A DNA stretch of 64,000 bases from Escherichia coli. GTDB lineage: Bacteria; Pseudomonadota; Gammaproteobacteria; Enterobacterales; Enterobacteriaceae. The DNA lies in NCBI RefSeq assembly GCF_036507355.1, contig NZ_AP027877.1; one strand, given 5' to 3'. The translations under genes and the position numbers were made by a program. The notes under the pieces are model-generated. The model was not told the DNA's origin and did no database searches. It saw only the letters and a list, made by a program, of their open reading frames with translations. Every line of letters begins with the position of its first letter. Within the stretch, counting starts at the first letter, position 1. Shown here piece after piece: positions 5,673-40,238 of the stretch.

Positions 5673-5749
<77 letters not shown>

Positions 5750-5800
5750 TCCGTGGATGCGCACTATACTCCGCTCGCGTTTTCATGCAACCTTTTTTTT
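5750..5800 (-). promoter_or_regulatory. Putative tRNA operon promoter with GC-rich discriminator
   Basis: Minus-strand TATAGT (rc of 5763-5768) followed by GC-rich GCGCATCCACGG just upstream of the first tRNA 5' end; position inferred, not mapped. Confidence 0.3.
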
Positions 5801-5957
5801 ACCCCGATCACGGATCTGGCATGATTTTGAACAAAAACAAATCACTAAAGCCTATTTTTTGTGCAAAATTTGCGTCAGGGAGAGGCTGCTCATTTCATTA
5901 AACGCGGTGGTTTGTTATCTTCGTTGCGCCTTATTTTTTAACCTGAAGAAGAGAACA

Positions 5958-7055
5958 ATGAAAGGACGTTGGGTAAAGTACCTTCTTATGGGCACGGTTG
6001 TGGCAATGCTTGCCGCCTGCTCTTCCAAACCAACCGATCGCGGACAGCAATATAAAGACGGGAAATTTACCCAGCCTTTCTCTCTGGTGAACCAGCCAGA
6101 TGCCGTTGGCGCGCCGATTAACGCCGGTGATTTTGCCGAGCAAATTAACCATATCCGTAATTCGTCACCGCGTCTGTATGGTAACCAGAGTAATGTTTAT
6201 AACGCGGTACAAGAGTGGCTGCGCGCAGGCGGTGATACCCGCAATATGCGTCAGTTCGGCATTGATGCCTGGCAGATGGAAGGTGCCGACAACTATGGTA
6301 ACGTGCAGTTTACCGGTTATTACACACCAGTAATTCAGGCGCGCCATACCCGCCAGGGCGAGTTTCAGTATCCGATTTACCGTATGCCGCCAAAACGTGG
6401 TCGTCTGCCGTCTCGTGCGGAGATCTACGCGGGGGCATTGAGTGATAAATATATTCTCGCTTACAGTAACTCCCTGATGGATAACTTCATTATGGATGTG
6501 CAGGGTAGTGGGTATATCGACTTTGGTGATGGCAGTCCGCTTAACTTTTTCAGCTATGCAGGGAAAAACGGTCATGCCTATCGCAGCATTGGTAAGGTGC
6601 TGATCGACCGTGGCGAAGTGAAAAAAGAAGATATGTCGATGCAGGCGATTCGTCACTGGGGCGAAACACACAGTGAAGCCGAGGTTCGCGAGCTGCTGGA
6701 ACAGAACCCGTCTTTCGTTTTCTTTAAACCGCAATCTTTTGCACCGGTGAAAGGGGCAAGTGCGGTGCCGCTGGTTGGCCGTGCTTCTGTTGCCTCCGAT
6801 CGTTCAATTATTCCGCCAGGTACAACCTTGCTGGCAGAAGTGCCGCTGCTGGATAATAACGGCAAATTTAACGGTCAGTACGAATTGCGTCTGATGGTGG
6901 CGCTGGATGTCGGTGGCGCAATCAAAGGCCAACACTTCGATATCTATCAAGGGATCGGGCCGGAAGCCGGACACCGTGCAGGTTGGTACAACCACTATGG
7001 ACGGGTTTGGGTGCTGAAAACGGCTCCGGGCGCAGGTAACGTCTTTAGCGGCTGA
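5958..7055 (+). CDS. mltA: Membrane-bound lytic murein transglycosylase A (lipoprotein)
   Basis: 365-aa product from ATG 5958; lipoprotein signal with lipobox LAAC; MltA-family sequence. The six-frame ORF (from 5676) runs back into the tRNA repeats and is not used. Confidence 0.9.
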   Translation: MKGRWVKYLLMGTVVAMLAACSSKPTDRGQQYKDGKFTQPFSLVNQPDAVGAPINAGDFAEQINHIRNSSPRLYGNQSNVYNAVQEWLRAGGDTRNMRQFGIDAWQMEGADNYGNVQFTGYYTPVIQARHTRQGEFQYPIYRMPPKRGRLPSRAEIYAGALSDKYILAYSNSLMDNFIMDVQGSGYIDFGDGSPLNFFSYAGKNGHAYRSIGKVLIDRGEVKKEDMSMQAIRHWGETHSEAEVRELLEQNPSFVFFKPQSFAPVKGASAVPLVGRASVASDRSIIPPGTTLLAEVPLLDNNGKFNGQYELRLMVALDVGGAIKGQHFDIYQGIGPEAGHRAGWYNHYGRVWVLKTAPGAGNVFSG

Positions 7056-7090
7056 TGTGATATTCTGTATGCCGTTTTTACGGATATTAC

Positions 7091-7270
7091 AGGGTGAGGG
7101 ATAACCTCACATCCTGATTATTGACTAAGTGCGCGTTGTTCATGCCGGATGCGGCGTGAACGCCTTATCCAGCCTACAAATCATGCAAATCCAAAATATT
7201 GCAGGAGTTATGTAGGCCTGATAAGCGTAGCGCATCAGGCATTTATGCGTTTAGGGTGAGGGATAACCTC
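7091..7270. repeat. BIME-like cluster: two REP palindromes bracketed by an 18-bp direct repeat
   Basis: AGGGTGAGGGATAACCTC at 7091-7108 and 7253-7270; REP-like units GCCGGATGCGGCGTGAACGCCTTATCCAGCCTAC and GTAGGCCTGATAAGCGTAGCGCATCAGGC between them. Confidence 0.6.
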
Positions 7271-7293
7271 GCCCTTTTTAATTCTGAGGTGCT

Positions 7294-8100
7294 ATGTCTG
7301 TGGTAATTAGTGATGTATGGCGTCAGCGTTTTGGTGGCACAGCGCGTCTGTATGGTGAAAAAGCGTTGCAACTGTTTGCTGACGCGCATATTTGTGTGGT
7401 TGGTATCGGTGGTGTCGGTTCCTGGGCGGCGGAAGCGCTGGCGCGCACGGGGATTGGCGCAATCACGCTTATCGATATGGATGATGTGTGCGTCACCAAT
7501 ACCAATCGGCAAATTCATGCCCTGCGCGATAACGTTGGGCTGGCAAAAGCGGAAGTCATGGCGGAACGTATTCGCCAGATTAACCCGGAGTGCCGTGTAA
7601 CGGTGGTGGATGATTTCGTGACGCCGGATAACGTAGCGCAATATATGAGTGCCGGTTATTCGTACGTGATTGATGCCATTGATAGTGTACGGCCCAAAGC
7701 GGCGCTGATTGCTTATTGTCGGCGCAATAAAATTCCGCTGGTCACGACCGGTGGCGCGGGTGGGCAGATTGACCCGACGCAGATTCAGGTTACCGATCTG
7801 GCGAAAACGATTCAGGACCCGCTGGCGGCGAAGTTGCGTGAGCGCCTGAAAAGCGATTTTGGCGTAGTGAAAAACAGTAAAGGTAAGCTCGGCGTGGATT
7901 GCGTGTTCTCTACCGAAGCATTGGTGTACCCGCAGTCAGACGGCACGGTGTGTGCGATGAAAGCCACGGCGGAAGGACCAAAGCGGATGGATTGTGCATC
8001 TGGATTTGGCGCGGCAACGATGGTGACCGCCACCTTTGGTTTTGTTGCGGTTTCTCATGCGCTGAAGAATATGATGGCGAAAGCGGCGCGACAGGGGTAA
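7294..8100 (+). CDS. tcdA: tRNA threonylcarbamoyladenosine dehydratase (E1-like, ThiF/MoeB fold)
   Basis: 268-aa ORF with nucleotide-binding GIGGVGSWAAEALARTG motif; synteny with csdAE. Confidence 0.9.
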   Translation: MSVVISDVWRQRFGGTARLYGEKALQLFADAHICVVGIGGVGSWAAEALARTGIGAITLIDMDDVCVTNTNRQIHALRDNVGLAKAEVMAERIRQINPECRVTVVDDFVTPDNVAQYMSAGYSYVIDAIDSVRPKAALIAYCRRNKIPLVTTGGAGGQIDPTQIQVTDLAKTIQDPLAAKLRERLKSDFGVVKNSKGKLGVDCVFSTEALVYPQSDGTVCAMKATAEGPKRMDCASGFGAATMVTATFGFVAVSHALKNMMAKAARQG

Positions 8101-40015: not shown

Positions 40016-40046
40016 CCAAAACCGGCTCTGTCAGGAGCCGGTTTGA
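40016..40046. terminator. Bidirectional hairpin terminator between convergent gudD and barA
   Basis: AACCGGCTC-tgtcagg-GAGCCGGTT with T-rich tract on the minus-strand side. Confidence 0.5.
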
Positions 40047-40068
40047 GACTGATGCCAAACACAAAATT

Positions 40069-40166
40069 GCCTGATGCGCTACGCTTATCAGGCCTAAATG
40101 CTTTTTAATTTATTGAATTTAATTGGTTTTGTAGGCCGGATAAGGCGTTAACGCCGCATCCGGCAT
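40069..40166. repeat. Two REP-like palindromes (BIME)
   Basis: GCCTGATGCGCTACGCTTATCAGGCC and GTAGGCCGGATAAGGCGTTAACGCCGCATCCGGCA. Confidence 0.6.
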
Positions 40167-40238
40167 AAACACAGGCACTTTGTCACCAATCTGAAACCAG
40201 CGTCATAAAAAGCCGATTGCTACTCGACAAGACATCCA

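What the first reader, a model, noticed from the sequence alone, without database searches (positions are those of the whole stretch)
7091..7270. 18-bp direct repeat flanking a REP doublet upstream of tcdA
AGGGTGAGGGATAACCTC occurs at 7091-7108 and 7253-7270, bracketing 144 bp that contain two REP-like palindromes. The layout resembles a duplication generated when a REP/BIME unit was inserted or expanded, for example by a RAYT-type transposase, and so may mark a recent mobility event.
Basis: seen in the sequence. Interest (0 to 1): 0.3.

Follow-up and report, generated by a model that had tools for sequence, protein, structure and literature searches.

The report
Terminator hairpin duplicated by BIME-1 insertion
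The 18-base repeat is most of the mltA terminator hairpin, copied on both sides of an old BIME-1 (REP-doublet) insertion that half of E. coli strains lack; the same signature at other sites suggests these elements insert at terminator hairpins.

Summary
In detail: AGGGTGAGGGATAACCTC occurs exactly twice (7091-7108, 7253-7270) and is not chance. It is not part of the REP repeat. It is the 5' arm, loop and part of the 3' arm of a locus-specific terminator hairpin that sits as a single copy upstream of tcdA in Salmonella, Enterobacter, Leclercia and Phytobacter. Between the copies lies a slightly truncated BIME-1 (Y REP, L linker, Z1 REP, outer motifs). About 52% of 5,425 E. coli genomes are filled; the rest are exactly 162 bp shorter with one intact hairpin. 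The insertion is old: E. albertii and two other non-coli Escherichia share it, and one cryptic strain carries at least 4.8 tandem 162-bp units. The E. coli empties are therefore probably precise losses between the repeats. The same signature recurs elsewhere: whole-hairpin duplications of 19-28 nt flank BIME-1 at mscK-rsmS, pitA-uspB, yqeA-yqeB and yqjF-yqjG. The yqjF-yqjG insertion is recent (78 genomes) and defines a 152-bp element with 15-nt inverted ends. Across 15 sites, half of all element ends abut a hairpin foot.

The parts
7053..7055 (+). mltA stop codon (TGA)
   Evidence: ORF 5676-7055; annotated as mltA in matching E. coli records
7091..7108 (+). Left copy of the 18-nt direct repeat: 5' arm AGGGTGAGG, loop GATAA and CCTC of the hairpin
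   Evidence: forms a bulged hairpin at 7090-7116 (CAGG-GTGAGG-GATAA-CCTCAC-AT-CCTG) in RNA and DNA folds; no T-run follows it
7114..7142 (+). Left outer motif of BIME-1 (CTGATTATTGACTAAGTGCGCGTTGTTCA); matches the left terminal inverted repeat of the 152-bp consensus with one mismatch
   Evidence: paralogues at mscK-rsmS, gltD-gltF, pitA-uspB, yqjF-yqjG, fepA-entD and barA-gudD; element alignment
7143..7177 (-). Y-type REP (palindromic unit), inverted
   Evidence: 1 mismatch to the Y consensus; partial Rfam naRNA4 (REP) hit
7178..7211 (+). L linker of BIME-1 (the IHF-site region in the family consensus)
   Evidence: Rfam ES036/CssrF, 46.5 bits, above the gathering score, at 7177-7219; aligned with the L linkers of 14 other BIME-1 copies
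7212..7241 (+). Z1-type REP
   Evidence: exact match to the Z1 consensus
7242..7252 (+). Right outer motif TTTATGCGTTT; the last 12 nt of the consensus element (GTCATCAGTCTC) are missing at this locus
   Evidence: alignment of 15 elements
7253..7279 (+). Right copy: complete hairpin AGGGTGAGG-GATAA-CCTCGCCCT (7253-7275) plus TTTT (7276-7279), an intrinsic-terminator-like site; the 18-mer is 7253-7270
   Evidence: the only terminator-like site in 6800-7500; conserved as a single copy upstream of tcdA in other genera
7286..7296 (+). tcdA ribosome-binding site (GAGG, 7286-7289) and start codon (7294-7296)
   Evidence: ORF 7294-8100; TcdA annotation in matching records
40045..40193 (-). Second BIME-1 in the window (barA-gudD spacer), 149 bp with both terminal motifs; its right end abuts the terminator hairpin at 40019-40044
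   Evidence: present in 5,205 of 5,425 genomes

Best explanation
The two 18-mers are a target duplication. The ancestral mltA-tcdA spacer had one stem-loop (AGGGTGAGG-GATAA-CCTCRCCCT followed by T's) just upstream of the tcdA ribosome-binding site. A BIME-1 element, a roughly 150-bp quasi-palindrome made of an inverted Y REP, the L linker, a Z1 REP and two outer motifs that are inverted repeats of each other, was joined at the feet of this hairpin, and the hairpin was copied so that it flanks the element on both sides. The right copy keeps the T-run and so keeps looking like a terminator. The left copy lost the T-run, so the BIME-1 would be transcribed as part of the mltA 3' end (inferred). 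Shown here: the filled and empty alleles, the ancestral single hairpin, the age of the insertion, and the recurrence of the same signature at other sites. Inferred: the duplication arises because each strand of the element is joined 3' of the hairpin on that strand. That could happen by nicks at the two hairpin feet followed by fill-in, or by strand-specific insertions on both strands followed by recombination or repair. Once formed, two direct repeats flanking a long palindrome are unstable. Slipped mispairing or unequal exchange between them removes the unit precisely, regenerating a perfect single hairpin (the E. coli empty alleles), or amplifies it in tandem (at least 4.8 units in one cryptic Escherichia strain). 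Which enzyme makes the joints is unknown; TnpA-REP (RAYT) is the obvious candidate but is untested.
For: Empty site: 2,754-2,830 of 5,425 genomes are filled and the rest span exactly 162 bp less, with one intact hairpin. Ancestral state: a single hairpin in the same position in Phytobacter, Salmonella, Leclercia and Enterobacter, and the P. massiliensis spacer is colinear with the E. coli empty allele. The 18-mer is locus-specific. The insert is a full repeated unit: paralogues cover 100% of 7116-7252 at 88-90% identity. Same signature elsewhere, each with empty alleles holding one hairpin: mscK-rsmS, pitA-uspB (26-nt repeat, 0/2000 shuffles) and yqjF-yqjG (25-nt repeat, 0/2000). The yqeA-yqeB site has a 27-28-nt repeat (0/1000). 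Polarity is proven at yqjF-yqjG: the insert is in only 78 of 5,425 genomes, all at least 99% identical, with duplication endpoints symmetric about the stem-loop. Across 15 independent sites, 15 of 30 element ends lie 0-2 nt from the foot of a hairpin of at least 7 bp, against a 3-5% background (binomial P about 7e-12). Instability: 0, 1 and at least 4.8 units are observed, and single-stranded DNA folds bring the two repeat copies together. Established knowledge: deletion between short direct repeats is stimulated by an intervening palindrome, as in precise excision of Tn10 and Tn5.
Against: At this locus the element lacks the last 12 nt of the consensus right end and has CT instead of CA at the left end, so its junctions are not the clean ones seen at yqjF-yqjG. 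Beyond 18-20 nt the left copy diverges (ACATC vs RCCCT), so a whole-hairpin (23-nt) duplication here is inferred from E. albertii and from the AT bulge rather than read directly. Duplication is not universal: 6 of 15 sites have a hairpin-sized or partial repeat, 5-6 have a hairpin at one end only, and 3 have none. Duplication length ranges from 0 to 28 nt, unlike any fixed-stagger transposase. IS200/IS605-type Y1 enzymes are not known to make target duplications (PMC2817692), and mapped TnpA-REP cleavage sites are at the REP feet (PMC3333891). The sample was drawn with a right-end pattern, so it is biased towards intact elements. The older BIME papers (Gilson 1991, Bachellier 1994 and 1997) could not be read here.
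Confidence: 0.75

Rival explanations
1. Template-switch origin without a transposase: during replication the nascent strand copied the hairpin, switched to a BIME-1 elsewhere (or to an excised copy), then returned upstream of the hairpin and copied it again.
For: Both the target and the insert are strong hairpins where polymerases stall. Duplication length is variable and equals the hairpin length rather than a fixed stagger. The loops of the duplicated copies are often altered (yqjF: both loops differ from the empty allele; pitA: the left copy lost its 4-nt loop), which could reflect error-prone synthesis.
Against: The element ends are the same to the base at independent sites. That needs defined donor ends, not microhomology-dependent switches, and no consistent microhomology is visible at the junctions. 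A self-templated fold-back version is excluded: the two copies are direct, not reverse-complement, in loop sequence and in G-T asymmetry at mltA, pitA and yqjF.
Confidence: 0.15
2. Recent RAYT-driven insertion at this locus: the filled allele is the derived, young state in E. coli.
For: Presence/absence polymorphism within E. coli. The two copies are identical over 18 nt in this window.
Against: E. albertii, 'E. coli' E69 and SCPM-O-B-8794 (6-10% diverged flanks) and Escherichia sp. MOD1-EC7003 all carry the insert with the same right junction. The insert has diverged roughly in step with the flanks. K-12's two copies already differ. Identity of the copies can be maintained by selection on the hairpin or by conversion.
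Confidence: 0.05
3. The two hairpins are an evolved functional pair (for example a double terminator or a regulatory structure for tcdA) and the repeat is maintained for that function, unrelated to BIME insertion.
For: The stem sequence GGGTGAGG/CCTCACCC is unusually conserved across genera. The E. albertii left copy keeps pairing through two G:C to A:T double changes.
Against: Half of E. coli does well with one hairpin. The left copy has no T-run. The same hairpin-element-hairpin layout occurs with unrelated hairpins at four other loci, which a locus-specific function does not explain.
Confidence: 0.05

Closest known systems
BIME-1 (also called RIP/RIB: a REP doublet with an IHF site) of E. 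coli
   Same: Inverted Y REP, conserved L linker, Z1 REP and conserved outer motifs; about 150 bp; extragenic; normally one unit per locus (PMC3333891 and, from memory, Bachellier 1994). From memory, presence/absence of whole BIME-1 units between strains was reported as 'excisions of a whole BIME-1' by Bachellier et al. 1997.
   Different: This copy lacks the last 12 nt of the right end. In one cryptic Escherichia strain the unit plus its hairpin is amplified in tandem, which is described for BIME-2 but not BIME-1. The flanking duplication of a terminator hairpin and the hairpin-foot position were not mentioned in any paper I could read.
REPIN-RAYT systems (REP doublets mobilised by a domesticated Y1/HUH transposase, TnpA-REP)
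   Same: A REP doublet that folds into a long hairpin; GTAG-headed REPs; very slow duplication. A recent gain is visible at yqjF-yqjG.
   Different: IS200/IS605-type enzymes insert single strands without target duplication, and the mapped TnpA-REP cleavage sites (CC^T at the REP feet) are not the termini seen here. No in vivo insertion has been demonstrated. RAYT dependence was not tested here.
Precise excision of Tn10/Tn5 (slipped mispairing between the target duplication, stimulated by the element's inverted repeats)
   Same: Direct repeats flanking a long palindrome; loss restores the original sequence exactly; expected to be RecA-independent.
   Different: The repeats here are 18-28 nt and are themselves palindromic. 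Excision here is inferred from population data, not measured.
Mobile elements that target hairpins, such as class C group II introns inserting after intrinsic terminators and IS110/IS1111 or IS1397 inserting in REPs (from memory and PMC1525189)
   Same: The insertion position is defined by a DNA stem-loop, often a terminator, rather than by a sequence.
   Different: Those elements encode their own enzymes and do not duplicate the whole hairpin.
Classical bacterial MITEs (ERIC, Correia, RUP)
   Same: Short non-autonomous element with terminal inverted repeats (12 of 15 in the consensus) and flanking direct repeats.
   Different: MITE target duplications have a fixed short length set by a DDE transposase. 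Here the length ranges from 0 to 28 nt and tracks the size of the target hairpin.

Membership tests
BIME-1 / RIP | One Y and one Z1 palindromic unit in opposite orientation | tested here: met
   Y at 7143-7177 (-), 1 mismatch; Z1 at 7212-7241 (+), exact
BIME-1 / RIP | Conserved long L linker between the two units, carrying an IHF consensus | tested here: inconclusive
   The linker aligns with 14 other BIME-1 linkers and hits Rfam ES036. The family consensus ATTCAATATATTG fits WATCAANNNNTTR at 12 of 13 positions, but this copy (ATCCAAAATATTG) fits less well. IHF binding was not tested.
BIME-1 / RIP | Conserved outer motifs on both sides (unit conserved over about 145-152 nt) | tested here: met
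   The left motif is complete and the right motif is present but lacks its last 12 nt
BIME-1 / RIP | Single unit per locus (not tandem) | tested here: met
   One unit in the window and in E. coli; exception: at least 4.8 tandem units in Escherichia sp. MOD1-EC7003
REPIN mobilised by RAYT (TnpA-REP) | REP doublet with GTAG heads able to fold into a long hairpin | tested here: met
   DNA and RNA folds, z-scores -6.4 to -7.4
REPIN mobilised by RAYT (TnpA-REP) | Mobilisation depends on the cognate RAYT; element ends coincide with its cleavage sites | not testable with these tools
   Published in vitro sites are CC^T at the REP feet and C^T in linkers (PMC3333891). The termini found here are about 29 and 23 nt outside the REPs, with a C^T 2 nt from each 3' tip; this is suggestive only.
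Classical MITE | Terminal inverted repeats | tested here: inconclusive
   12 of 15 in the 152-bp consensus, but the right repeat is missing at this locus
Classical MITE | Target-site duplication of fixed length | tested here: not met
   Lengths of 0, 4, 9, 18-23, 19-22, 25, 26 and 27-28 nt at different sites
Intrinsic (Rho-independent) terminator | G+C-rich stem-loop immediately followed by a T-run | tested here: met
   Right copy 7253-7275 plus TTTT. The left copy is not followed by a T-run. Termination activity was not measured.
Minisatellite / VNTR | Head-to-tail unit whose copy number varies between strains | tested here: met
   0 units (empty), 1.11 units (window) and at least 4.8 units of 162 bp at 96% identity

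The most novel reading that the evidence does not exclude
BIME-1 elements are 152-bp mobile units whose in vivo target is the foot of a terminator-type DNA hairpin. Each strand's 5' end is joined 3' of the hairpin, and this frequently duplicates the whole stem-loop. The insertion therefore preserves the host terminator, and the element stays precisely excisable and amplifiable. If so, the insertion step of REP/BIME mobility, undefined for 40 years, has a readable footprint and an assayable target.
Probability: 0.45. Interest if true: 0.75.

Novelty: new variant of a known kind. Interest (0 to 1): 0.55.

Why it matters
REP/BIME elements are the most abundant repeats in E. coli, yet how they insert in vivo is still described as unknown or 'semi-random' (bioRxiv 10.64898/2026.03.23.713779, 2026). 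This locus and its sister sites provide exact filled and empty junctions, one demonstrably recent gain, a structural target (the foot of a terminator hairpin) and a characteristic footprint (duplication of the hairpin). Together these turn the question into an experiment: put a terminator hairpin on a plasmid and look for BIME-1 arrival with and without TnpA-REP. The result also explains why BIME-1 units can disappear cleanly or expand, which matters for strain typing and for 3'-UTR regulation. For the locus itself the practical message is modest: it is an old, ordinary BIME-1 indel, not a fresh transposition.

Tried and rejected
Chance repeat: rejected.

18-mer as part of a dispersed composite repeat: rejected. 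It occurs only in mltA-tcdA spacers among 223 loci and is the ancestral hairpin in other genera.

Fold-back (self-templated) origin of the second hairpin: rejected, because the copies are direct, not reverse-complement.

A single donor locus for the insert: not found. The best paralogues (pitA-uspB, fepA-entD, yqjF-yqjG) are only 88-90% identical.

REP/RIP annotation in NC_000913.3 as a shortcut to list all BIME-1 copies: the record as held carries no repeat features.

BLAST with a tandem-junction query to count E. coli genomes with two or more units: uninformative, because single-unit genomes match in two joined pieces.

Reading Gilson 1991 and Bachellier 1997: not held.

Strict local alignment of the barA-gudD flanks: no significant repeat. 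By eye the left flank may be a decayed copy, but I do not count it.

Flanking-haplotype test for one versus several losses in E. coli: inconclusive, because the flanks are mosaic.

Full report
**1.
AGGGTGAGGGATAACCTC occurs at 7091-7108 and 7253-7270 and nowhere else in the window, even allowing 3 mismatches. None of 100 dinucleotide shuffles gave two matches. The layout, read from the sequence, is:
- mltA stop at 7053-7055.
- Left repeat copy inside a bulged hairpin, 7090-7116.
- A 29-nt conserved motif, 7114-7142.
- An inverted Y REP, 7143-7177.
- A 34-nt linker, 7178-7211.
- A Z1 REP, 7212-7241.
- An 11-nt motif, 7242-7252.
- Right repeat copy as a clean 9-bp stem-loop, 7253-7275, followed by TTTT.
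- The tcdA ribosome-binding site at 7286-7289 and start codon at 7294.

The right hairpin is the only terminator-like site found in 6800-7500. Rfam's ES036/CssrF model hits the linker above its gathering score, and naRNA4 partially hits the REPs. Both are BIME pieces catalogued as small RNAs.

**2. The 18-mer is a hairpin, not part of the repeat family.**
It comprises the 5' arm (AGGGTGAGG), the loop (GATAA) and the first four bases of the 3' arm. A single copy of the same stem-loop, followed by a T-run and the tcdA ribosome-binding site, is present in Phytobacter, Salmonella, Leclercia and Enterobacter. The Phytobacter massiliensis spacer is colinear with the E. coli empty allele. One hairpin is therefore the ancestral state.

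**3. Filled and empty alleles.**
- Of 5,425 complete E. coli genomes, 2,754 hold the full 551-bp query and 2,830 hold the insert-specific left motif.
- The others span exactly 162 bp less.
- Aligned empty alleles (ST131, Nissle 1917, 95NR1, strain 4621) carry one intact hairpin, AGGGTGAGGG[A/G]TAACCTC[A/G]CCCTTTTT.
- K-12 is filled, and its two copies differ at one loop base.

**4. Age and direction at this locus.**
E. albertii, two genomes labelled E. coli whose flanks are 6-10% diverged (E69, SCPM-O-B-8794), and Escherichia sp. MOD1-EC7003 all carry the insert with the same right junction, GCGTTT|AGGGTG. The insertion therefore predates E. coli and is not a recent event. Within E. coli the flanking haplotypes are mosaic. 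On the tcdA side two empty alleles group with filled K-12 at 4-5 differences, while the other two empties are 14-19 differences away. The most economical reading is precise loss inside E. coli, once or several times, spread by recombination. Retained ancestral polymorphism is not excluded.

In E. albertii the left copy is a complete 23-nt hairpin, AGAGTGAGA-AATAA-TCTCGCTCT, with two G:C to A:T double changes that keep pairing. In E. coli the left 3' arm reads CCTCAC-AT-CCT. Together these suggest that the whole stem-loop was originally duplicated, although only 18-20 nt remain identical.

**5. The unit is unstable in both directions.**
In MOD1-EC7003 the 162-bp unit (left-type hairpin plus BIME-1) is repeated at least 4.8 times at 96% identity and runs off the contig end. 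Only the last hairpin is of the terminator type. Alleles with 0, 1 and about 5 or more units therefore exist. Single-stranded DNA folds are far more stable than shuffles (z = -7.4 and -6.5). At yqjF-yqjG the whole block folds into one long hairpin that juxtaposes the two repeat copies. It is established knowledge that a palindrome between short direct repeats stimulates slipped-strand deletion, as in precise excision of Tn10 and Tn5. Applying that here is an inference.

**6. The insert is a complete BIME-1, and the signature recurs.**
In genomes with the empty site, the best paralogues cover 100% of 7116-7252 at 88-90% identity. This shows that the 'non-REP' flanks belong to the repeated unit.

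| Locus | What flanks the BIME-1 | Population data |
|---|---|---|
| mscK-rsmS | two diverged copies of a hairpin | 3,880 genomes filled; empties about 170 bp shorter with one hairpin |
| pitA-uspB | CGAGCGGGTCAG(TTTG)CTGGCCCGCTT on both sides, 0/2000 shuffles | 1,940 filled; CFT073 empty has one hairpin |
| yqjF-yqjG | AAACGAGGAG-loop-CTCCTCGTTT on both sides, 0/2000 shuffles | only 78 genomes filled, all at least 99% identical; all others, including K-12, have one hairpin |

The yqjF-yqjG case is a recent gain. It gives unambiguous boundaries: a 152-bp element, CAGATTGTTGAC...CATCAGTCTC, and a 25-nt duplication consisting of the stem-loop plus 3 nt on each side, symmetric about the hairpin axis.

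**7. A wider sample.**
A metagenome scan with the conserved right end returned 120 hits, which fall into 12 right-flank clusters (11 sites, because one site split into two clusters). Gene neighbours were named with NCBIfam. Combined with the sites above, 15 independent sites fall into three groups:
- **Hairpin-sized or partial duplication:** mltA-tcdA, mscK-rsmS, pitA-uspB, yqjF-yqjG and yqeA-yqeB (27-28 nt, 0/1000 shuffles); partial (9 nt) downstream of nikR.
- **A hairpin abutting one end only:** the cysM side, downstream of a hok gene, site L107, ybiA-rhlE (two variants) and barA-gudD.
- **None:** fepA-entD, L109 and a truncated copy by cueO.

Fifteen of 30 element ends lie 0-2 nt from the foot of a hairpin of at least 7 bp, against a 3-5% background (binomial P about 7e-12). 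The consensus ends are inverted repeats: CAGATTGTTGACAAA matches the reverse complement of the right end at 12 of 15 positions. The rule read from the junctions is that on each strand the element's 5' end follows the 3' foot of a hairpin.

**8. Mechanism: what is shown and what is inferred.**
- **Shown:** insertion at hairpin feet, and frequent duplication of the hairpin in direct orientation.
- **Rejected:** a fold-back origin, because loops and G-T asymmetries are direct in both copies.
- **Inferred, first route:** nicks at the two feet of the stem-loop, perhaps extruded as a cruciform, then joining of the element and fill-in.
- **Inferred, second route:** strand-specific insertions 3' of the hairpin on both strands, followed by recombination or repair.
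- **Enzyme:** TnpA-REP is the natural candidate. However, its mapped sites (CC^T at the REP feet, C^T in linkers) are not these termini. Y1 transposases are not known to duplicate targets.
- **Rival:** a replication template-switch model remains possible, but it fits poorly with termini that are identical to the base at independent sites.
- **Consequence (inferred):** the right copy keeps the T-run, so the terminator survives and the BIME-1 becomes part of the 3' untranslated region.

**9. Comparison with the literature.**
BIME-1 as a unit of about 145-150 bp with outer motifs is known (PMC3333891, and, from memory, Bachellier 1994). From memory, loss of whole BIME-1 units between strains is also known (Bachellier 1997, not readable here). 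None of the papers I could read mentions hairpin-foot targeting or hairpin duplication. Delihas 2011 states that REPs lack MITE signatures. A 2026 preprint still calls REP insertion semi-random and mechanistically unresolved. Touzain 2010 notes that about 10% of small variable segments are flanked by short repeats and attributes their loss to slippage.

**10. Verdict.**
The feature is real and well explained. At this locus it is an old BIME-1 indel whose flanking repeat is the duplicated mltA/tcdA hairpin. The locus itself is ordinary. The general pattern it exposes may be new and is directly testable, with the caveats that the sample is modest, the older literature is unchecked and the enzyme is unknown.

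Noticed in passing
window 40019-40193 (- strand): Second BIME-1 (149 bp) in the barA-gudD spacer, fixed in 5,205 of 5,425 E. coli genomes. Its right end abuts the terminator hairpin AAACCGGCTCCTGACAGAGCCGGTTT. The left flank (GCAATCGGCTTTTTATGACGCTGGTTT) may be a decayed copy of that hairpin, but it did not reach significance.
   Followed up: partly
window 7253-7293; L016, L020, L022, L024, L043, L053, L062 just upstream of tcdA: The stem GGGTGAGG/CCTCACCC plus T-run lies 6 nt upstream of the tcdA ribosome-binding site and is conserved at the sequence level (no covariation) across several genera. This is unusual for a plain terminator. It may also act on tcdA expression or bind a factor.
   Followed up: no
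L013 (E. albertii), about 2270-2300: The left hairpin copy differs from the right by five G:C to A:T transitions, four of which form two compensatory pairs, so pairing is preserved although this copy has no T-run. Either the structure is under selection or mutations are templated within the hairpin.
   Followed up: no
L012 1-785 (Escherichia sp. MOD1-EC7003): At least 4.8 tandem copies of the 162-bp hairpin-plus-BIME-1 unit; the contig ends inside the array, so the true number is unknown. BIME-1 is described as non-tandem.
   Followed up: yes
L100 (yqjF-yqjG, filled) vs L101/L103 (empty); L096 vs L102 (pitA-uspB): The loops of the duplicated hairpins are altered. At yqjF the loops are GAACA and AAACG against GAAG in empty alleles. 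At pitA the left copy has lost its 4-nt loop. This may be a trace of error-prone synthesis or single-strand damage at insertion.
   Followed up: no
L015, L018, L019, L032, L035, L039, L063, L083, L090, L017 (mltA-tcdA spacer in other genera): Citrobacter, Kluyvera, Klebsiella, Raoultella and an Enterobacter strain carry their own, different REP-like palindromes or repeats in the same spacer and lack the AGGGTGAGG hairpin. The spacer seems to have been colonised independently many times.
   Followed up: no
L010 701-760 (gltD-gltF spacer): A decayed BIME-1 remnant (left motif AATTACTGACGAAGTGCGCGTTGTT plus a degenerate REP) lies 4 nt after the gltD terminator hairpin TTCGCCAGACTGTGTCTGGCGAA. This is another element end close to a hairpin foot.
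   Followed up: partly
L196 (cueO-gcd region, metagenome contig): A BIME-1 copy whose left end is replaced by sequence that reads as the 3' part of gcd (…NYLRAYNMSNGEKLWQARLPAGGQ). The element may truncate or re-terminate the gene in that organism.
   Followed up: no
window 7177-7219 and 7138-7174: Rfam families ES036 (CssrF) and naRNA4 (CssrE) match the BIME-1 linker and the REP respectively, so genome scans with Rfam will label ordinary BIME pieces as small RNAs.
   Followed up: partly
six named loci (mltA-tcdA, yqjF-yqjG, fepA-entD, pitA-uspB, mscK-rsmS, barA-gudD): In all three tandem gene pairs the Y-REP side of BIME-1 faces the upstream gene. The orientation may be tied to the direction of transcription. 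The sample is too small to judge.
   Followed up: no
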